A stretch of DNA of 9,140 bases from a virus. Lineage: Duplodnaviria > Heunggongvirae > Uroviricota > Caudoviricetes. The DNA is taken from IMG/VR virus record IMGVR_UViG_2698536549_000008. The stretch is one strand, 5' to 3'. Position numbers and translations under genes: made by a program. The notes under the pieces were generated by a model. The model did not search any database. It was not told where the DNA came from and saw nothing but the letters and a program-made list of their open reading frames with translations. Position 1 is the stretch's first letter. Every line of letters begins with the position of its first letter. Positions 1 to 6,842 of this stretch are shown here, piece by piece.

Positions 1-167
1 CAACGCGGACGGATAACACGAAATCCTGCGAACTGGCAAAACCTAAGTGAATAAAAGTAAAAAACCCGTTTGTTAGCAGCAGGTGGGGTTTTGTGTTTCC
101 TGACTCCGGAAAAGTCAAAGGAGAAAGTGTGTTTGATTTTAGCAAACTGATTCGGGAGATTTGAGTG

Positions 168-266
168 ATGGCTGAAAAATTATCCACCTGGAAGTTCATC
201 CTTATCTGGCTGGTGTTTGTGATTATGGCCCCCGGTTATTTCATCGGTCAGATACGCTGGTGGTGA
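168..266 (+). CDS. Hypothetical small single-pass membrane peptide (32 aa), directly upstream of Rz
   Basis: ATG at 168 preceded by GGGAG (154-158) and an in-frame TGA at 162-164; translation [32 protein letters not shown] has a ~20-residue hydrophobic core; stop TGA 264-266 lies 1 nt before the Rz ATG at 268. Not in the supplied ORF track (too short). No homolog recognised. Confidence 0.35.
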
Positions 267-267
267 A

Positions 268-679
268 ATGAACCGCGTTCTGTGTGTGGTCATCATTGCC
301 CTGCTGGTGGCCTGTGGTGCGCTTAGTCTGGGGCTGAATCATTACCGCGATAACGCCATCACCTACAAAGAGCAGCGCGATAAAAAAGCCAGAGAGCTGG
401 AGCTGGCAAACGCAACCATTACTGATATGCAGCAGCGCCAGCGCGATGTTGCTGCGCTCGATGCAAAATACTCGAGGGAATTAGCCGATGCGAGAGCTGA
501 AAATGAANNNNNNNNNNNNNNNNNNNNNNNNNNNNNNNNNNNNNNNNNNNNNNNNNNNNNNNNNNNNNNNNNNNNNNNNNNNNNNNNNNNNNNNNNNNNN
601 NNNNNNAGAGCGGTTGATGATGATGCAGAAGCAGCTGGAAGGGGCGCAGGAATATATCCGCACTCAGTGCCTGAAATAA
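268..679 (+). CDS. Rz: Rz i-spanin (inner-membrane spanin subunit), interrupted by the N gap
   Basis: First 79 aa ([79 protein letters not shown]) align residue-for-residue with lambda Rz as recalled; after the gap, [23 protein letters not shown] (608-679) matches the lambda Rz C-terminus. The track ORF 268..834 is an artefact of reading through the gap in the wrong frame. Confidence 0.9.
488..617 (+). CDS. Rz1: Rz1 o-spanin (outer-membrane lipoprotein spanin), embedded in Rz in the +1 frame; mostly hidden in the gap
   Basis: ATG at 488 in the +1 frame relative to Rz gives MRELKM..., positionally and sequence-wise like the lambda Rz1 start MLKLKMM; after the gap the +1 frame ends ...SG* at TGA 615-617, like lambda Rz1 ...ERG*. 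The lipobox and proline-rich core fall in the Ns and cannot be seen. Confidence 0.5.
507..606. other. Assembly or masking gap of 100 N
   Basis: Run of exactly 100 n characters. Rz and Rz1 frames on either side are offset by +1, so 100 is a placeholder; the true length must be a multiple of 3, about 150 nt if Rz is lambda-length. Confidence 0.97.
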
Positions 680-894
680 GTTTTGCTGATGCGCCGTATC
701 GTCGCCGTATTCCCGTATTAACAGAGACCGCAGCCCGACAGGGAGACTCCTCTGCGAGAGTGTGCGGGGATAATCAAAAACGATACACACCGGGGTTTAC
801 CGCGTTAACGGAGCGCGGCGTTGTCCCCTCATAGTCGCCTGTCCGGTGCGATGGTGGAAGAAACTGGATTTGTTGCAACTGATAACCATTATCA

Positions 895-1115
895 TTTTCT
901 CGGGTCCTTTCCGGCATATGGACCCGTTACGGGGCGGCGACCTCGCGGGTTTTCGCTATTTATGAAAATTTTTCGGGAAAAAGCATGTCAGTTCTTCTTG
1001 TTGTTAACCTATTGTTTTTAAAGAAATAATCATCAAGAAAGAAACGACATCAGAACGCTGAAAAATCTGTCTTTTTTGGCATTTCATGTCGTAACTGATT
1101 TTTGATAAGGAATTG
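895..1115 (+). promoter_or_regulatory. cos: cos region: cosQ-like segment, cosN, and cosB-like terminase-binding region ahead of Nu1
   Basis: 896-931 (TCTCGGGTCCTTTCCGG...GACCCGTTACG) resembles the lambda right-end sequence before cosN; 944-981 (CGCGGGTTTTCGCTATTTATGAAAATTTTTCGGG) is near-identical to the first bases after the lambda left cohesive end; further downstream lie segments resembling lambda R3/R2/R1 (e.g. GTTCTTCTTGTTGTTAA, GAAAGAAACGACA). cosN to Nu1 ATG is 188 nt, 190 in lambda. Confidence 0.8.
932..943. other. cosN: cosN: 12-nt cohesive-end sequence GGGCGGCGACCT (terminase nicking site)
   Basis: Exact match to the lambda 12-nt 5' cohesive end as recalled, in the expected position between the lysis genes and Nu1. 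Confidence 0.8.
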
Positions 1116-1119
1116 CTGA

Positions 1120-1668
1120 ATGAATGTTAATAAAAAGAAGCTTGCTGAAATCTTTAATGTCGATATACGCACTATTGATCGCTGGCAAACTCAGGGGCTC
1201 CCTCAGATATCTGGTGGAGGAAAAGGTGTTGAGGTCATCTTTGATTCTGCGAAGGCGATCGAATGGTATGCTCAGCGCGAAGCTGATATTGAAAATGAAA
1301 AACTCCGTAAAGAGGTCGAGGATTTGAGGGCGGCCAGCGAATCAGACCTTCAGCCCGGCACCATTGATTACGAACGTTACCGACTGACGAAGGCACAGGC
1401 AGATGCACAGGAACTGAAAAATGCCCGCGACAGTGGGCAGGTCATTGATACAGGGTTTTGCCTTTTTGCTCTGGGAAGACTGGCACAGGAGATCTCTGCC
1501 ATTCTTGACTCCATTCCATTGTCCATGCAGAGACAGTTTCCGGCACTGACGCCCGCTATGCTTGATTTCCTGAAAACCGATATAGCAAAGGCGGCAAACC
1601 GATGCGCATCAACGGCAGAGAAGTTACCGGAGATGCTGGATGAATACCTCAGAGAAGCAGCTAAATAA
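1120..1668 (+). CDS. Nu1: Terminase small subunit (gpNu1-like)
   Basis: 182 aa; [41 protein letters not shown]... aligns with lambda gpNu1 (MEVNKKQLADIFGASIRTIQNWQEQGMPVLRGGGKGNEVLY...), including the N-terminal HTH and the GGGKG motif; shallow SD-like AAGGA about 10 nt upstream. Confidence 0.93.
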
Positions 1669-3568
1669 CTTTGCTGTTGTTTGTGGAGTGGCACTTCGTG
1701 GGCTTTTACGCCCACTGCCTGTAACCACCGTTGAATGGGCCGATCAAAATTATTATTTGCCCCCGGAGTCCTCTTATCTTGCTGGGCGGTGGAAGACGTT
1801 GCCCTTTCAGGTGGCAATAATGAACTGCATGGGTAATGACCGGATCCGCACAATTAATCTTATAAAATCAGCTCGAGTCGGTTACACCAAAATGCTGATG
1901 GGCGTTATTGGTTACTTTATTGAGCATAAAAACCGTAACAGTCTTCTGTTTCAGCCTACGGATTCTGCCGCTGAAGATTTTATGAAGTCTCATGTGGAGT
2001 CAACATTACGGGATGTTCCCTGTCTGAAAATTCTTTCCCCCTGGCTGGGGCGTAAGCACCGGGATAACACACTGACATTAAAAAGATTCACGTCCCGTGT
2101 GGGGTTCTGGTGCCTGGGTGGTGCTGCCGCCAAAAACTACCGTGAAAAATCAGTGGATGTGGTCTGCTATGACGAACTTTCCTCATTCGAGCCGGATGTC
2201 GAAAAAGAGGGCTCGCCAACCCTGCTGGGGGATAAGCGTATTGAGGGCTCGGTATGGCCAAAATCTATTCGCGGCTCGACGCCTAAAATAAAAGGCACCT
2301 GCCAGATCGAAAAAGCGGCCAACGAGTCGGCGCATTTCATGCGTTTTTATGTGCCCTGCCCGCACTGTGGGGAGGAGCAGTATCTGAAATTTGGCGATGA
2401 ATCCACGCCTTTTGGCCTTAAATGGGAGAAGGACAGCCCCGAAAGCGTTTTCTATCTCTGTGAACATCATGGCTGCGTGATCCATCAGTCTGAGCTTGAC
2501 CAGAGCAACGGGCGGTGGATCTGTGAAAACACGGGCATGTGGACCCGTGACGGCCTGACGTTTTTCAGCGCTGCGGGTAATGAAATTCCGCCGCCGCGCT
2601 CCATCACTTTCCATATCTGGACGGCGTACAGTCCGTTCACCACCTGGGTACAGATAGTCTATGACTGGCTGGATGCACTGAAAGATCCCAACGGCCTGAA
2701 AACTTTTGTGAACACCACGCTGGGCGAGACCTGGGAAGAGGCCGTGGGCGAAAAACTCGATCACCAGGTGCTGATGGATAAGGTCGTGCATTACACGGCA
2801 GCGGTGCCTGCCCGGGTGGTTTATCTGACGGCGGGCATTGACTCGCAGCGTAACCGTTTTGAGATGTATGTCTGGGGATGGGCTCCGGGAGAGGAAGCCT
2901 TTCTGGTGGATAAAATCATCATTATGGGGCGTCCTGATGAGGAAGAGACGCTGTTACGTGTGGATGCGGCGATCAACAAAAAATACCGCCATGCAGACGG
3001 TACCGAAATGACCATTTCCCGTGTCTGCTGGGACACCGGGGGGATCGATGGTGAAATTGTTTATCAGAGATCAAAAAAACACGGTGTTTTCCGGGTGCTG
3101 CCGGTAAAAGGCGCATCTGTCTATGGCAAGCCGGTGATCACCATGCCAAAAAACCGCAATCAGCGGGGCGTGTATCTGTGTGAAGTGGGGACAGACACCG
3201 CAAAAGAAATTCTCTATGCCCGTATGAAAGCCGATCCCACGCCTGCGGATGAAGCCACGTCGTATGCCATCCGTTTTCCTGATGATCCGGAGATTTTTTC
3301 GCAGACAGAGGCGCAGCAACTGGTGGCGGAAGAACTGGTGGAGAAGTGGGAAAAAGGAAAGATGCGTCTGCTGTGGGATAACAAAAAGCGGCGTAACGAA
3401 GCGCTGGACTGCCTGGTGTATGCCTACGCGGCATTACGTGTGTCCGTGCAACGCTGGCAGCTTGATCTGGCTGTACTGGCAAAATCCCGGGAAGAAGAGA
3501 CGACCCGGCCAACCCTGAAAGAACTGGCAGCGAAGCTGTCCGGAGGAGTGAATGGTTACAGTCGCTGA
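1640..3568 (+). CDS. A: Terminase large subunit (gpA-like; packaging ATPase and cos endonuclease)
   Basis: 642 aa, collinear with lambda gpA (641 aa) over the full length (e.g. [20 protein letters not shown] at residues 76-84 = nt 1865-1891, [37 protein letters not shown]); start overlaps the Nu1 3' end by 29 nt as in lambda. Confidence 0.95.
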
Positions 3569-3758: not shown

Positions 3759-5347
3759 AACGAACGCCTGTCCTGATTGATGTGAACGGCGTTCCGCTTC
3801 GGGAGAGCCTCAGCTACCACGGGGGCGGTGCAGGATTTGGCGGGCAAATGGCGGAGTGGTTGCCACCGGCGCAGAGTGCCGATGCGGCCCTGCTGCCCGC
3901 GTTGCGTCTGGGGAATGCCCGTGCAGATGATCTGGTGCGCAATAACGGGATAGCGGCTAATGCGGTGGCCCTGCATAAGGATCATATTGTCGGGCATATG
4001 TTTCTTATCAGCTACCGTCCGAACTGGCGCTGGCTGGGGATGCGGGAGACTGCGGCAAAAAGTTTTGTCGATGAGGTGGAGGCGGCCTGGTCGGAATACG
4101 CAGAAGGGATGTTTGGCGAGATCGACGTGGAAGGGAAACGCACGTTCACGGAATTTATCCGTGAAGGTGTGGGCGTTCATGCCTTTAACGGCGAAATCTT
4201 TGTGCAGCCGGTCTGGGATACGGAGAGCACGCAGCTGTTTCGTACGCGTTTTAAAGCCGTGAGTCCGAAACGGGTGGACACGCCAGGGCACGGTATGGGG
4301 AACCGCTTTCTGCGGGCCGGTGTGGAGGTTGATCGATATGGCCGTGCCGTTGCGTACCATATCTGTGAGGATGATTTTCCGTTCTCTGGTAGTGGACGAT
4401 GGGAACGGATCCCGCGTGAACTTCCCACCGGGCGTCCGGCCATGCTGCATATTTTCGAGCCGGTGGAGGACTGGCAGACCCGTGGGGCCAATCAGTTTTA
4501 CAGCGTCATGGAACGGCTGAAGATGCTGGATTCCCTGCAGGCAACACAGCTTCAGTCGGCCATTGTTAAAGCCATGTATGCAGCGACGATTGAAAGTGAA
4601 CTTGATACCGAAAAGGCCTTTGAATATATCGCGGGGGCACCGCAGGGTCAGCAGGATAATCCGCTTATTAATATTCTGGAGAAGTTCTCCAGCTGGTATG
4701 ACACGAATCATGTGACGCTGGGCGGTGTCAAAATTCCGCACCTTTTCCCCGGTGATGATCTGAAACTGCAGACCGCGCAGGATTCAGACAATGGATTTTC
4801 GGCGCTTGAACAGGCGCTGCTGCGGTATATCGCCGCCGGTCTTGGCGTTTCCTACGAACAGTTGTCCCGTGATTACTCGAAGGTCAGTTATTCAAGTGCC
4901 CGCGCCTCTGCCAATGAGTCGTGGCGCTATTTTATGGGACGACGAAAATTTATTGCGGCCCGGCTGGCCACGCAGATGTTTTCCTGCTGGCTGGAAGAGG
5001 CACTTCTTCGGGGGATTATCCGTCCGCCACGGGCACGTTTTGATTTTTATCAGGCGCGATCAGCCTGGTCACGGGCCGAGTGGATTGGTGCCGGAAGAAT
5101 GGCCATTGACGGGCTCAAGGAGGTCCAGGAATCGGTGATGCGTATTGATTCCGGACTGAGCACGTATGAGAAAGAGCTGGCGCTGATGGGTGAGGATTAT
5201 CAGGACATTTTCCGCCAGCAGGTCAGGGAATCCGCAGAGCGGGAAAAAGCCGGACTCTCACGTCCGGTGTGGATAGCGCAGGCGTATCAGCAGCAGATAG
5301 CGGAGAGCCGCAGGCCGGAAGAGGAGACAACACCACGTGAGACGTAA
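3755..5347 (+). CDS. B: Portal protein (gpB-like)
   Basis: 530 aa; long collinear blocks shared with lambda gpB (YHGGGAGFGGQ, GNARADDLVRNNG, FEPVEDWQTRGAN, QLQSAIVKAMYAATIESELDT, LLRYIAAGLGVSYEQLSR, GRMAIDGLKEVQE); ATGA start/stop overlap with W. Confidence 0.95.
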   Translation: MKRTPVLIDVNGVPLRESLSYHGGGAGFGGQMAEWLPPAQSADAALLPALRLGNARADDLVRNNGIAANAVALHKDHIVGHMFLISYRPNWRWLGMRETAAKSFVDEVEAAWSEYAEGMFGEIDVEGKRTFTEFIREGVGVHAFNGEIFVQPVWDTESTQLFRTRFKAVSPKRVDTPGHGMGNRFLRAGVEVDRYGRAVAYHICEDDFPFSGSGRWERIPRELPTGRPAMLHIFEPVEDWQTRGANQFYSVMERLKMLDSLQATQLQSAIVKAMYAATIESELDTEKAFEYIAGAPQGQQDNPLINILEKFSSWYDTNHVTLGGVKIPHLFPGDDLKLQTAQDSDNGFSALEQALLRYIAAGLGVSYEQLSRDYSKVSYSSARASANESWRYFMGRRKFIAARLATQMFSCWLEEALLRGIIRPPRARFDFYQARSAWSRAEWIGAGRMAIDGLKEVQESVMRIDSGLSTYEKELALMGEDYQDIFRQQVRESAEREKAGLSRPVWIAQAYQQQIAESRRPEEETTPRET

Positions 5348-6842
5348 TCTTTCACACATTATTGCCGCAGCATTCAATGAACCGCTGCTTCTGGAGCCCG
5401 CCTATGCGCGGGTTTTCTTTTGCGCGCTCGGGCGCGAGATGGGGGCAGCAAGTCTTTCGTTACCACAACAGCAGGTACAGCTTGATGCTCCCGGGATGCT
5501 GGCTGAAACGGACGAGTACATGGCCGGAGGTAAACGACCGGCCCGTGTTTACCGGGTGGTGAACGGTATTGCGGTACTGCCGGTGACCGGCACGCTGGTG
5601 CACCGGCTGGGTGGTATGCGGCCATTTTCCGGAATGACAGGCTATGACGGCATTGTTGCCTGTCTTCAGCAGGCAATGGCGGACACCTCTGTCCGGGGCG
5701 TACTGCTGGATATTGACAGTCCGGGCGGGCAGGCCGCCGGTGCGTTTGACTGCGCTGACATGATTTACCGCCTCCGGCAGCAGAAGCCGGTCTGGGCACT
5801 GTGTAATGACACGGCCTGTTCTGCGGCCATGCTGCTGGCGTCGGCCTGCTCCCGACGGCTGGTTACCCAGACATCCCGTATCGGCTCCATTGGCGTGATG
5901 ATGGGCCATGTCAGCTATGCCGGTCATCTGGCGCAGGCCGGAGTGGATATCACGCTGATTTATGCCGGGGCGCATAAGGTGGATGGCAATCAGTTTGAAG
6001 CCTTACCGGCAGAGGTGTGTCAGGACATGCAGCAGCGTATTGATGCGGCGCACCGGATGTTTGCCGAAAAAGTGGCGATGTATACGGGGCTGTCTGTGGA
6101 AGCTGTCACGGGGACAGAGGCTGCCGTTTTTGAAGGTCAGTCCGGTATTGAGGCCGGGCTGGCGGATGAGTTAATCAATGCGTCGGATGCCATCAGCGTG
6201 ATGGCTGCGGCGCTGAACACACATGATACAGGAGGCACTATGCCGCAATTAACTGCAACGGAAGCCGCCGCGCAGGAGAACCAGCGAGTGATGGGGATCC
6301 TGACGTGTCAGGAAGCGAAAGGACGTGAACAGCTTGCCACGATGCTGGCAGGACAACAGGGCATGAGCGTTGAACAGGCCCGGGCGATTCTGGCTGCGGC
6401 AGCACCACAGCAGCCGGTGGCATCCGCGCAGAGTGAAGCCGATCGCATTATGGCGTGTGAAGAAGCTAAAGGTCGTGAACAACTGGCGGCAACGCTGGCG
6501 GCGATGCCGGATATGACGGTGGAAAAAGCCCGCCCGATCCTGGCTGCTTCACCGCAGGCGGATGCCGGACCCTCACTCCGTGATCAGATTATGGCTCTGG
6601 ATGAGGCAAAAGGGGCTGAGGCGCAGGCTGAAAAACTGGCGGCCTGCCCGGGAATGACCGTGGAGAACGCCCGGGCTGTGCTGGCTGCGGGATCAGGTAA
6701 GGCAGAACCGGTTTCTGCATCCACAACCGCCCTGTTTGAACATTTCATGGCGAACCATTCACCGGCAGCGGTACAGGGTGGTGTGCCACAGACGTCAGCA
6801 GACGGTGATGCGGACGTGAAAATGCTCATGGCCATGCCATGA
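5337..6842 (+). CDS. C: Head maturation protease (gpC-like, S49/ClpP-fold peptidase) with C-terminal scaffold domain
   Basis: 501 aa; N-terminal two-thirds collinear with lambda gpC (AFNEPLLLEPAYARVFFCAL, NGIAVLPVTGTLV, GAFDCADMI, SRRLVTQTSRIGSIGVMM, ITLIYAGAHKVDGN, GLADELINASDAI). Apparent GTG start at 5337 with GAGGAG 10 nt upstream, overlapping the B stop; start codon choice is uncertain. About 60 aa longer than lambda gpC. Confidence 0.9.
   Translation: MRRNLSHIIAAAFNEPLLLEPAYARVFFCALGREMGAASLSLPQQQVQLDAPGMLAETDEYMAGGKRPARVYRVVNGIAVLPVTGTLVHRLGGMRPFSGMTGYDGIVACLQQAMADTSVRGVLLDIDSPGGQAAGAFDCADMIYRLRQQKPVWALCNDTACSAAMLLASACSRRLVTQTSRIGSIGVMMGHVSYAGHLAQAGVDITLIYAGAHKVDGNQFEALPAEVCQDMQQRIDAAHRMFAEKVAMYTGLSVEAVTGTEAAVFEGQSGIEAGLADELINASDAISVMAAALNTHDTGGTMPQLTATEAAAQENQRVMGILTCQEAKGREQLATMLAGQQGMSVEQARAILAAAAPQQPVASAQSEADRIMACEEAKGREQLAATLAAMPDMTVEKARPILAASPQADAGPSLRDQIMALDEAKGAEAQAEKLAACPGMTVENARAVLAAGSGKAEPVSASTTALFEHFMANHSPAAVQGGVPQTSADGDADVKMLMAMP
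6240..6842 (+). CDS. Nu3: Scaffolding protein (gpNu3-like), in-frame internal start within C
   Basis: ATG at 6240 is in frame with C and preceded by AGGAGG (6230-6235), the strongest SD in the window; gives a 200-aa product sharing the C stop, matching the lambda C/Nu3 nested arrangement. Confidence 0.55.
   Translation: MPQLTATEAAAQENQRVMGILTCQEAKGREQLATMLAGQQGMSVEQARAILAAAAPQQPVASAQSEADRIMACEEAKGREQLAATLAAMPDMTVEKARPILAASPQADAGPSLRDQIMALDEAKGAEAQAEKLAACPGMTVENARAVLAAGSGKAEPVSASTTALFEHFMANHSPAAVQGGVPQTSADGDADVKMLMAMP
6285..6700 (+). repeat. Three tandem degenerate protein-level repeats (~40 codons each) in the C/Nu3 scaffold region
   Basis: Units RVMGILTCQEAKGREQLATMLAGQQGMSVEQARAILAAAAP (from 6285), RIMACEEAKGREQLAATLAAMPDMTVEKARPILAASP (from 6444) and QIMALDEAKGAEAQAEKLAACPGMTVENARAVLAAG (from 6585); lambda has one copy of this motif as recalled (SRIMGILNCEEAHGREEQARVLAETPGMTVKTARRILAAAP). 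The DNA copies differ at many synonymous positions. Confidence 0.6.

What the first reader, a model, noticed from the sequence alone, without database searches (positions are those of the whole stretch)
680..931. Very short Rz-to-cos interval with no bor-like accessory gene
Only about 250 bp separate the Rz stop from cosN, and I find no credible ORF on either strand. In lambda this interval is about 2 kb and carries bor and other small ORFs. The segment contains a short direct repeat (CGCCGTATCGTCGCCGTATTC, 701-721) and small inverted repeats (e.g. CCGCG...CGCGG around 800-818) of unknown function.
Basis: partly seen in the sequence, partly recalled or inferred. Interest (0 to 1): 0.35.

Follow-up and report, generated by a model that had tools for sequence, protein, structure and literature searches.

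The report
Conserved folded RNA unit before cos
The short gap between the lysis gene Rz and the packaging site cos is the cargo-free form of a common prophage junction, filled by the left part of cos and a sharply bounded 180-base unit, also found in phage lambda and E. coli K-12, that appears to fold as an RNA of unknown function matching no Rfam family.

Summary
Rz stops at 677-679, the lambda-type cohesive end GGGCGGCGACCT starts at 932, the gap is 252 nt, no credible ORF lies in it, and lambda has 2,075 bp there.

The gap is not featureless. Bases 690-869 are a sharply bounded unit found after the lysis genes in about 400 phage records and in 4,146 of 5,426 complete E. coli genomes. These include lambda (46,865-47,036) and K-12 DLP12. 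Its flanks are unrelated between contexts.

In late-transcript sense it keeps eight helices, including a long-range rod and an H-type pseudoknot. 96% of cells pair, 20 pairs carry compensatory changes, and G-U cells outnumber A-C cells 360 to 20. It has no codon periodicity and no Rfam match.

Bases 877-931 are the left part of cos, including cosQ (902-908).

Relatives carry cargo (bor, rha, ybcV, ylcI and others) on either side of the unit, never inside it.

Function is not shown. My best guess is a cis-acting element of the late mRNA. The short interval itself is ordinary; the RNA-like unit is the interesting part.

The parts
268..679 (+). Rz (i-spanin) gene. Bases 508-606 are an N mask that hides 155 real bases, including most of the embedded Rz1. 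The stop codon TAA is at 677-679.
680..689 (+). Short spacer between the Rz stop and the conserved unit. It is conserved only among phages with this Rz type.
690..869 (+). Conserved 180-nt unit, a structured-RNA candidate in late-transcript sense. The covariance model hit spans 687-872 at 212.7 bits.
696..786 (+). P1, a long-range helix of GTATCGT (696-702) with ACGATAC (780-786). It closes the 5' domain.
708..772 (+). P2, an 11-bp helix of TATTCCCGTAT (708-718) with GTGCGGGGATA (762-772). Four of its pairs show compensatory changes. Its 5' arm is the other half of the 'direct repeat'.
734..760 (+). Two small hairpins at the tip of the 5' domain: CCC/GGG (734-736 with 741-743) and CTC/GAG (750-752 with 758-760). 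Both are almost invariant, so covariation does not test them.
792..828 (+). P3, GGG (792-794) with CCC (826-828), enclosing P4. This is the weakest helix.
800..818 (+). P4 hairpin, CCGCG (800-804) with CGCGG (814-818). The stem sequence differs between lineages while pairing is kept.
834..852 (+). PK, the pseudoknot stem GTCGC (834-838) with GCGAT (848-852). It was found by covariation and was not part of the model used to align the sequences.
841..869 (+). P5, GTCCGGT (841-847) with ACTGGAT (863-869). All 7 pairs show compensatory changes. With PK it forms an H-type pseudoknot whose third loop (853-862, GGTGGAAGAA) has an invariant purine-rich core.
877..897 (.). Imperfect palindrome AACTGATAA / TTATCATTT just left of cosQ. 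It is shared with the lambda right end (lambda about 48,453-48,470) and phage 21. Similarity to the lambda cos region starts here.
902..908 (+). cosQ heptamer GGGTCCT, 23 nt before the cohesive end as in lambda. The same heptamer is annotated as cosQ in the phage 21 record.
932..943 (+). cosN cohesive-end sequence GGGCGGCGACCT, identical to lambda.
944..1119 (+). cosB-like region between cosN and Nu1, partly alignable with lambda bases 13-190.
1120..1668 (+). Terminase small subunit Nu1 (Pfam Phage_Nu1, E = 1e-81).
1640..3568 (+). Terminase large subunit gpA (Pfam GpA_ATPase and GpA_nuclease).

Best explanation
The 252-nt Rz-to-cos interval is the cargo-free form of a junction shared by lambdoid prophages, and two non-coding parts fill nearly all of it.

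(1) Bases 690-869 are a conserved 180-nt unit. Read in the sense of the late (pR') transcript, it folds into a 5' domain and a 3' domain. The 5' domain is closed by two long-range helices, P1 and P2. The 3' domain has hairpins P3 and P4 and an H-type pseudoknot (PK plus P5) with an invariant purine-rich loop.

(2) Bases 877-931 are the left part of a lambda-type cos site: a palindrome, cosQ, and the spacer up to the cosN nick.

In relatives, accessory genes sit between Rz and the unit (bor, rha and others) or between the unit and cos or the terminase genes (ybcV, ylcI, a TonB-C-like gene and others). They never sit inside the unit. This phage has both slots empty.

Shown here: the boundaries, conservation, base-pair covariation, strand bias, lack of coding signal, fixed position and fixed orientation.

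Inferred, not shown: the unit has no promoter or terminator of its own, so it is made as part of the late polycistronic mRNA. It then acts in cis at the border between the lysis genes and the packaging genes. The most likely roles are an RNA processing or stability element (an RNase III-like rod, or a barrier to 3' exonucleases), or a signal that keeps transcription going across the long untranslated cos region.
For: Boundaries:
- Across 68 distinct contexts, column entropy is 1.66 and 1.71 bits in the 45 nt on either side and 0.52 bits inside. The change falls at 690 and 869.
- BLAST end points agree.

Spread:
- 398 phage records hold a match, including lambda, 21, VT1-Sakai, VT2-Sakai (933W-like) and ES18, which have different terminase types.
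- E. coli genomes hold 11,123 places in 4,146 of 5,426 genomes.
- Full-length model hits occur in lambda at 46,865-47,036 and in K-12 DLP12 at 579,006-579,178.

Structure:
- On a plain MAFFT alignment, 96.7% of cells pair against 38-61% when partners are slid. Ten pairs carry compensatory changes, and 0 of 500 shuffles reach this.
- With 69 distinct sequences and the pseudoknot added, 96.4% pair and 20 pairs carry compensatory changes. Cells changed on both sides number 117 against 30 +/- 6 in shuffles.
- The PK stem was found by covariation and was not in the model that made the alignment. It is still 95% paired, with pair types GU/CG/UG/AU, UA/CG/UG and CG/AU/GC.
- On a neighbour-joining tree there are 29 independent pair-keeping double substitutions. 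Random re-pairings of the same columns give a mean of 2.7 and a maximum of 9.

Strand:
- G-U cells number 360 and A-C cells 20.
- The unit always has the orientation of Rz.

Not coding:
- Lengths of 170-206 nt are not multiples of three, and no frame is open in all members.
- Variable sites fall 36/34/30 on the three codon positions.

cos:
- cosQ, the spacing and the cohesive end are identical to lambda.
- Nu1 and gpA are confirmed by Pfam.

Cargo slots.
Against: - No transcription, processing or phenotype data were available, so the cis role is inference only.
- The predicted fold of the window's copy is no more stable than shuffled sequence (z = -0.63).
- Sequence identity of the unit to lambda is 74% in the 5' domain and 57% in the 3' domain. 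That is no higher than four-fold sites of the neighbouring Rz (72%), although it is far above Nu1 four-fold sites (36%). Selection is therefore supported by the pattern of changes and the sharp boundaries, not by conservation as such.
- The sequences come from a narrow group, enterobacterial lambdoid phages.
- P1, P2a and P2b hardly vary, so covariation does not test them.
- The tree count also finds 45 pair-breaking events.
- P22 lacks the unit, so it is not essential for lambdoid phages in general.
- Q-modified RNA polymerase already resists terminators, so an anti-termination role would be redundant.
Confidence: 0.55

Rival explanations
1. The unit is a trans-acting non-coding RNA. It would be cut out of the late transcript and would bind a host or phage factor, for example Hfq through the (ARN)n-like loop GGAAGAAAC, CsrA, a small-RNA partner (acting as a sponge), or a defence component.
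For: - Unpaired stretches are invariant, for example AUAAUCAAAAACGAU and the GGAAGAA core of the P5 loop.
- The fold is compact, has two domains and contains a pseudoknot.
- Genomes hold up to 11 copies.
- The 3' arm of P2, GCGGGGAUAAUC, matches 11 of 12 nt of the E. coli type I-E CRISPR repeat (GCGGGGAUAAAC). This comparison uses the repeat as I recall it and was not tested with a tool.
Against: - No promoter or terminator travels with the unit. The flanks are unrelated, and no promoter-like or terminator-like site lies in 680-931.
- Its position and orientation in the late operon are fixed, which is unusual for free-standing cargo.
- Its conserved loops have no better-than-chance complementarity elsewhere in the window.
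- The CRISPR-like stretch is absent from the ES18 copy (GCAAUGAUAAU), and the hairpin loop is replaced by 43 nt.
Confidence: 0.15
2. The unit is only a recombination 'linker', a stretch of shared DNA at which lambdoid phages exchange lysis modules, cargo and packaging modules. It would have no function as RNA.
For: - Mosaic joints fall at its two ends in many contexts.
- Cargo can be flanked by two full copies (L055 at 5054-5238 and 6004-6188), or by a full copy plus a partial 3' copy (L174).
- Its sequence identity is about that of Rz four-fold sites.
Against: - A passive linker would not keep base pairing through 29 independent double substitutions.
- It would not show an 18-fold excess of G-U over A-C cells on one strand.
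- Homology would not end exactly at the foot of helix P5 and 6 nt before P1.
Confidence: 0.12
3. The interval is a featureless short spacer. The small repeats are chance, and the shortness only reflects the absence of morons.
For: - The small repeats are at chance level on their own.
- The fold is not unusually stable.
- No Rfam family matches.
Against: - Conservation with sharp boundaries in about 400 phage records and 76% of E. coli genomes.
- Covariation.
- Both repeats map onto conserved helix arms.
Confidence: 0.05
4. The unit works as folded single-stranded DNA of the + strand, for example as a priming signal or a recombination signal during late replication.
For: The strand bias and the hairpins would also fit G-T pairs in single-stranded DNA. 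Cargo flanked by copies is reminiscent of cassette sites.
Against: No recombinase or primase is linked to it. Lambdoid DNA is double-stranded at entry and during packaging. Its co-orientation with a very strong late transcript gives a simpler source of single strands.
Confidence: 0.05
5. The unit encodes a small protein, the family PHROGs calls phrog_6954 'Rz-like spanin' (81 aa).
For: The 81-aa ORF over the unit in VT2-Sakai matches phrog_6954 end to end (E = 3.7e-60). The window's 24-aa fragment at 760-834 matches it weakly (E = 3.6e-6). Some records annotate a 'hypothetical protein' or 'Rz-like spanin' here.
Against: - Only 2 of 69 distinct copies hold an ATG-started ORF of 50 codons or more.
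- The window has no start codon and a stop at 832-834 in that frame.
- Indels of 1, 10 and 17 nt occur between members.
- The third codon position is not more variable than the others.
- No Pfam family matches.
Confidence: 0.03

Closest known systems
Lambda cos site (cosQ, cosN, cosB with Nu1 and gpA terminase)
   Same: The cohesive end GGGCGGCGACCT, the cosQ heptamer GGGTCCT, the 23-nt spacing between them and the palindrome left of cosQ all match lambda. Nu1 and gpA follow.
   Different: The cosB part and Nu1 are diverged: 62% amino-acid identity, 36% identity at four-fold sites. cos here lies 252 nt after Rz, against 2,075 nt in lambda.
Unannotated copies of the same unit in lambda (46,865-47,036, between bor and the ybcV-like gene) and in E. 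coli K-12 DLP12 (579,006-579,178, between borD and ybcV)
   Same: Both are full-length hits of the covariance model (124 and 129 bits). P1, P2 and P5, including the GGAAGAAAC loop, are kept, and the orientation relative to Rz is the same.
   Different: The middle of the 3' domain (P3 and P4) is shortened and diverged in these copies. They are flanked by cargo on both sides. The records I read carry no RNA annotation there.
phrog_6954 'Rz-like spanin' (a PHROGs protein family)
   Same: It covers the same DNA. The 81-aa ORF that spans the unit in VT2-Sakai-type phages matches it end to end.
   Different: Across the family of DNA copies there is no conserved frame, start codon or codon periodicity. 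The protein family is most likely a set of ORF calls made over a non-coding element.
Moron slots of lambdoid late operons (bor in lambda, 21 and 933W; rha in ES18)
   Same: Relatives carry bor, rha, ybcV, ylcI and other small genes at this junction.
   Different: This phage has no cargo in either slot. The new point is that cargo always lies on one side or the other of a fixed unit, often within a few bases of its ends.
Cis-acting RNA elements inside phage or bacterial operons: HK022 put, lambda nut (boxA/boxB), Bacillus EAR, T7 RNase III sites, REP-type mRNA stabilisers
   Same: It is a structured RNA embedded in a long operon, without its own promoter, at a border between gene blocks. The coaxial P1 and P2, about 18 bp with an internal loop, resemble an RNase III substrate. 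This is a resemblance from established knowledge and was not tested.
   Different: There is no sequence or model match to any Rfam family. 'CGCAUUAACA' only partly resembles boxA. The loop of the small hairpin is not conserved, so it is not a boxB. At 180 nt with a pseudoknot it is larger and more complex than put or nut.
P22 sncRNA P22G (PMC13397905)
   Same: It lies after rha, downstream of the lysis genes and upstream of the terminase genes. P22G shares with ES18 the sequence GCGAAACAACCCAAGCCAG.AAGUGGGGGAAA.UAACA, which lies immediately left of the unit in ES18.
   Different: P22 diverges exactly where the ES18 unit begins and has no model hit (best 5.8 bits). P22G is not a homologue.

Membership tests
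Lambda-type cos site | 12-nt cohesive-end sequence GGGCGGCGACCT at cosN | tested here: met
   An exact match lies at 932-943.
Lambda-type cos site | cosQ heptamer GGGTCCT upstream of cosN at the lambda spacing | tested here: met
   It lies at 902-908, 23 nt before the cohesive end as in lambda. The same heptamer is annotated as cosQ in the phage 21 record.
Lambda-type cos site | cosB with Nu1-binding R sites and an IHF site between cosN and Nu1 | tested here: inconclusive
   944-1060 aligns in part with lambda 13-130, and R-like repeats (ATGTCG...) are visible. Binding cannot be tested here.
Lambda-type cos site | Nu1 and gpA terminase genes immediately downstream | tested here: met
   Pfam Phage_Nu1 at E = 1e-81, GpA_ATPase at 2e-55 and GpA_nuclease at 2e-71.
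bor-like or other accessory (moron) gene in the Rz-cos interval | An ORF with a homologue in relatives, usually with its own promoter and terminator | tested here: not met
   ORFs are at most 66 aa and match no real family. The window's place falls in the Rz-to-Nu1 class with no Bor match. No promoter-like or terminator-like site lies in 680-931.
Any described RNA family (Rfam 15) | A covariance-model match at or near the gathering score | tested here: not met
   No match with E <= 1 in 1-1800. In 675-935 the only match is a chance miRNA hit at E = 4.8.
Conserved structured RNA element (generic) | Base pairs kept through compensatory changes beyond the controls | tested here: met
   (0 of 500 shuffles; slid controls 36-61% paired). 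The tree-based count is 29 against a mean of 2.7.
Conserved structured RNA element (generic) | Strand-specific G-U pairs, which separate RNA sense from antisense | tested here: met
   360 G-U cells against 20 A-C cells.
Conserved structured RNA element (generic) | A fold more stable than shuffled sequence | tested here: not met
   z = -0.63 for the + strand and 0.07 for the - strand.
Conserved structured RNA element (generic) | The element is transcribed | not testable with these tools
   It lies between Rz and Nu1 in the late operon, in the same orientation. No expression data were at hand.
Small protein family phrog_6954 ('Rz-like spanin') | A conserved reading frame with a start codon and a coding pattern of substitutions | tested here: not met
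   Only 2 of 69 copies hold an ATG-started ORF of 50 codons or more. Variable sites fall 36/34/30 by codon position. Indels are not multiples of three.
Intrinsic terminator | A G+C-rich hairpin followed by a run of U | tested here: not met
   No terminator-like site lies in 680-931. P5 is followed by UUUGUUGCAAC in the window and by unrelated sequence in other contexts.
nut-like antitermination site (boxA, boxB, boxC) | boxA consensus CGCUCUUA / UGCUCUUUAACAA, and a boxB hairpin with a conserved GNRA-like loop | tested here: not met
   Only 'UUAACA' is shared. The loop of the CCC/GGG hairpin varies (GACA, GACG, UGAC, UUGC, UUAAU and others). The consensus sequences are from my own knowledge.
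RNA anti-CRISPR / solitary CRISPR repeat mimic (type I-E) | Similarity to the host repeat over its whole length, including hairpin and handle, kept across members | tested here: not met
   Only about 11 of 12 nt of the 3' arm match. A 43-nt insert takes the place of the loop, and the stretch is lost in ES18. The repeat sequence is from my own knowledge.
RNase III processing site | About two turns of double-stranded RNA with an internal loop, cleaved by RNase III | not testable with these tools
   The predicted coaxial helices P1 (7 bp) and P2 (11 bp), separated by a 5-nt/7-nt internal loop, fit the shape. Cleavage is untested.

The most novel reading that the evidence does not exclude
A previously undescribed class of structured RNA sits in the late operon of lambda itself and of most E. 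coli lambdoid prophages. It is about 180 nt long. It has a riboswitch-like 5' domain closed by long-range helices and a 3' H-type pseudoknot with an invariant purine-rich loop. It would control late gene expression, for example by processing, by sensing a ligand or protein, or by anti-termination, or it would counter a host defence. It has gone unnoticed partly because some databases translate it as a small 'spanin-like' protein.
Probability: 0.45. Interest if true: 0.75.

Novelty: new member of a known kind. Interest (0 to 1): 0.58.

Why it matters
The short interval itself is an ordinary variant: the junction without morons.

What matters is the conserved, sharply bounded, RNA-like unit inside it. 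The unit is present in three quarters of complete E. coli genomes, in phage lambda and in K-12. It is absent from Rfam, and no RNA is annotated over it in the records I read.

If it is a working RNA, three things follow:
- One of the best-studied genomes in biology carries an unrecognised regulatory element in its late operon.
- The element marks the fixed point around which virulence-related cargo such as bor/iss is inserted.
- A PHROGs 'spanin' family would need to be re-labelled.

The question is directly testable in lambda with a 172-bp deletion and compensatory helix mutants.

Tried and rejected
RNA family and stability checks
- Rfam at permissive thresholds found nothing.
- The stability z-score is not significant on either strand.

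Protein-coding readings of every ORF in the interval were rejected. Pfam and PHROGs give no real family. The phrog_6954 match is explained as ORF calls made over the unit.

Own promoter or terminator: none lies in 680-931.

Mobile element (MITE or IS): there are no terminal inverted repeats, and the copies always lie at one position in lambdoid late operons.

Known prophage small RNAs
- The Pas sRNAs are described next to the holin/lysozyme operon and near the Q antiterminator gene. That paper does not mention terminase or lysis.
- P22G shares only a flank with ES18, and P22 lacks the unit.

Literature searches found nothing. I searched for the sequence itself, for borD and ybcV, and for RNAs between lysis and terminase genes. 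The ES18 genome paper is not held.

Resemblances judged weak
- nut-like boxA/boxB/boxC and the type I-E CRISPR repeat: see the membership table.
- Chi-like GATGGTGG (850-857): it varies between lineages and is never the true Chi octamer.

Other tests
- The conserved loops show no better-than-chance complementarity elsewhere in the window.
- Naive all-against-all covariation is dominated by shared ancestry. I kept only the PK stem from it, because neighbouring pairs covary and it passed the separate count.
- Sequence conservation is not evidence of selection here, since it is no higher than at Rz four-fold sites.
Full report
**What the window is**

The window matches a prophage of E. coli strain CFIAFB20190157 at 100% identity (NZ_CM143728.1). 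RefSeq annotates a 'lysis protein' (Rz) there, then nothing for 440 nt, then the terminase small and large subunits.

In the window, Rz runs from ATG 268 to TAA 677-679. The N-run 508-606 replaces 155 real bases with 99 N. That is why the two halves of Rz seem to lie in different frames. Nu1 (1120-1668) and gpA (1640-3568) are confirmed by Pfam.

**Check of the observation**

- The lambda cohesive-end sequence GGGCGGCGACCT lies at 932-943. The cosQ heptamer GGGTCCT lies at 902-908, 23 nt upstream, exactly as in lambda. The same heptamer is annotated as cosQ in the phage 21 record. The Rz-to-cosN interval is therefore 252 nt.
- In lambda the same interval is 2,075 bp, from the Rz end at 46,427 to the genome end at 48,502.
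- ORFs that touch the interval are 24-66 aa and have no support.
The inverted repeat CCGCG/CGCGG is at 800-804 and 814-818.
- On their own these repeats are at chance level.

**A conserved unit inside the interval**

BLAST against phage records showed that the segment after Rz is shared by many phages whose neighbouring genes differ. 398 records hold a match. They include VT1-Sakai, VT2-Sakai (933W-like), phage 21, ES18 and SPN3UB, at 75-97% identity.

In lambda the match lies after bor, at 46,868-46,981 by BLAST. The covariance model extends it to 46,865-47,036.

Among complete E. coli genomes there are 11,123 places in 4,146 of 5,426 genomes, up to 11 per genome. 691 of them are on plasmids, and the plasmid places listed are partial copies. 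K-12 carries a copy in DLP12 between borD and ybcV, at 579,006-579,178.

With 68 distinct copies anchored on the model, column entropy is 1.66 and 1.71 bits in the 45 nt to the left and right, and 0.52 bits inside. The step falls at window 690 and 869.

**Conserved base pairing**

RNAalifold on a plain MAFFT alignment of 38 representatives gave two long-range helices and a terminal hairpin:
- P1: 696-702 with 780-786.
- P2: 708-718 with 762-772.
- P5: 841-847 with 863-869.

The variable hairpin P4 (800-804 with 814-818) keeps pairing with quite different sequences. Examples are CCGCG/CGCGG, UCUCAU/AUGGGA, CUGUG/CGCAG, CAGC/GCUG and UCGCA/UGCGA.

Counts on three alignments:

| Alignment | Sequences | Cells paired | Pairs with compensatory changes |
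|---|---|---|---|
| MAFFT | 38 | 96.7% (slid controls 38-61%) | 10 (0 of 500 shuffles reach this) |
| Covariance model | 89 distinct | 97.6% | 16 |
| Covariance model plus PK | 69 distinct | 96.4% | 20 |

An all-against-all covariation scan was mostly noise from shared ancestry. It did show two neighbouring covarying pairs, which define a further stem, PK (834-838 with 848-852). PK was not in the model that made the alignment, yet it is 95% paired, with pair types GU/CG/UG/AU, UA/CG/UG and CG/AU/GC. In the PK alignment, 117 cells are changed on both sides against 30 +/- 6 in shuffles.

PK and P5 together make an H-type pseudoknot. Its third loop (853-862, GGTGGAAGAA) has an invariant purine-rich core.

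Counting events on a neighbour-joining tree gives 29 independent pair-keeping double substitutions. 200 random re-pairings of the same columns give a mean of 2.7 and a maximum of 9.

G-U cells outnumber A-C cells 360 to 20. The folded strand is therefore the + strand, the sense of Rz and Nu1.

**Cautions on the structure**

- The fold of the window's copy is no more stable than shuffled sequence (z = -0.63).
- P1 and the two small tip hairpins hardly vary, so covariation does not test them.
- P3 is weak.
- The tree count also finds 45 pair-breaking events.
- Identity of the unit to lambda is 74% in the 5' domain and 57% in the 3' domain. That is no higher than four-fold sites of the neighbouring Rz (72%), though far higher than those of Nu1 (36%).

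The case for selection therefore rests on the pattern of substitutions and on the sharp boundaries, not on conservation alone.

**Not a gene**

- Copy lengths range from 170 to 206 nt and are not multiples of three. No frame is open in all copies.
- Variable sites fall 36/34/30 on the three codon positions. Only 2 of 69 copies hold an ATG-started ORF of 50 codons or more.
- PHROGs has a family over this DNA, phrog_6954, called 'Rz-like spanin'. It matches the 81-aa ORF that happens to be open in VT2-Sakai-type copies (E = 3.7e-60) and a 24-aa fragment in the window. I read it as a set of ORF calls made over a non-coding element.
- No Rfam family matches, even at E <= 10.

**The rest of the interval**

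Similarity to the right end of lambda starts at about 881 (GATAACCATTATCA) and runs through cosQ to the nick.

The interval is therefore made of these parts:
- about 10 nt of spacer (680-689);
- the unit (690-869);
- about 7-11 nt of spacer;
- the left part of cos (877-931).

Almost every base is accounted for.

**Context in relatives**

In 169 places the unit always has the orientation of Rz and always lies between the lysis genes and the packaging genes.
- Between Rz and the unit, relatives carry bor on the opposite strand, rha (ES18), a DUF4406 gene, or two small genes of Ss-VASD.
- Between the unit and cos or the terminase genes, they carry ybcV and ylcI on the opposite strand, a TonB-C-like gene, or nothing.
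- The stop codons of ybcV and ylcI lie within -2 to +7 nt of the unit's 3' end.
- One contig has two full copies flanking a cargo gene. Others have a full copy plus a partial 3' copy after ybcV and ybcW.
- P22 lacks the unit. It shares with ES18 the sequence to the left of the unit and diverges exactly where the unit starts.

The window's arrangement, with both slots empty, is one of the common states. Rz-unit-Nu1 occurs in 16 of the 169 places, and Rz-unit-terminase of the VT1 type in 22.

**How it most likely works**

Shown: the unit is a selected, strand-specific, folded, non-coding element with a fixed place and orientation in the late operon. It has no promoter or terminator of its own.

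Inferred: it is made as part of the pR' late transcript and acts there in cis. The coaxial P1 and P2 (about 18 bp with an internal loop) look like an RNase III substrate. The rod together with the pseudoknot would also make a good barrier to 3' exonucleases, which could uncouple the stability of the lysis and packaging parts of the mRNA. A role in keeping transcription going across the untranslated cos region is also possible, but it would be redundant with Q.

Rivals, all considered in the rival entries of this report:
- a trans-acting RNA released from the late transcript;
- a mere recombination linker;
- a folded single-stranded DNA signal;
- a small protein;
- a featureless spacer.

The covariation and the strand bias argue against the linker, protein and spacer readings. 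Nothing here separates a cis role from a trans role.

**Is it known?**

No RNA is annotated over the unit in the lambda, phage 21, ES18 or K-12 records, or in RefSeq E. coli genomes. Searches of the held literature found no description, and neither did a search for the sequence itself. That library lacks most subscription journals, so an earlier mention cannot be ruled out.

**Verdict**

The interesting result is the conserved RNA-like unit, which is a new member of a known kind (structured RNA motifs in phage operons) with function still unknown.

Noticed in passing
window 508-606: The N-run is not length-preserving. 99 N stand for 155 real bases of Rz, including most of the embedded Rz1. As a result Rz looks frame-shifted, and a false 188-aa ORF (268-834) runs on into the interval.
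   Followed up: yes
window 165-266 (and 65-87): A 33-aa hydrophobic ORF ([33 protein letters not shown]) ends just before the Rz start. It matches phrog_6632, of unknown function, at E = 7.8e-20, and recurs upstream of Rz in locus L174. RefSeq does not annotate it in the source genome. A terminator-like hairpin at 65-87 precedes it. In VT1-Sakai the R-to-Rz gap holds an antirepressor gene (ant), so this gap looks like another cargo slot.
   Followed up: partly
phrog_6954; L009:1493-1738: The PHROGs family labelled 'Rz-like spanin' (81 aa) corresponds to an ORF read across the conserved non-coding unit in VT2-Sakai/933W-type phages. The label, and probably the family itself, look like annotation artefacts.
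   Followed up: yes
L055:5054-5238 and 6004-6188: Two full copies of the unit, 950 nt apart, flank an ORF of about 200 aa with no Pfam match. A DUF4406 gene sits between Rz and the first copy. This suggests that cargo is gained by recombination between copies.
   Followed up: partly
L174:3126-3266 (also L176, L172): A partial 3' copy of the unit (the P5 region, about 20 bits) lies about 1 kb downstream of the full copy. It follows ybcV- and ybcW-like cargo and precedes the terminase small subunit gene.
   Followed up: partly
E. coli plasmids, e.g. NZ_CP010147.1 86542-86636: 691 places are on plasmids. Those listed match only bases 8-101 of the unit, at 81% identity. I suspect, without checking, that these are the iss (bor-derived) regions of ColV-type plasmids carrying a piece of the unit with them.
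   Followed up: no
window 871-883 and 1087-1099: The direct repeat TGTTGCAACTGAT / TGTCGTAACTGAT (85% identity) links the stretch just right of the unit with the cosB region next to Nu1. It may be an extra Nu1-binding (R4-like) site left of cosQ.
   Followed up: no
window 850-857: GATGGTGG differs from the Chi octamer GCTGGTGG by one base. It lies 75 nt from the cos end, in the orientation Chi would need there. It varies between lineages and is part of PK and the third loop, so it is probably a coincidence.
   Followed up: partly
Genome-contig hits L011-L047: Many 'hits' in unrelated bacteria (Pseudomonas, Cohnella, Flavobacterium and others), on contigs of about 48.4 kb or about 3.5 kb, look like lambda control DNA left in assemblies rather than real prophages.
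   Followed up: no
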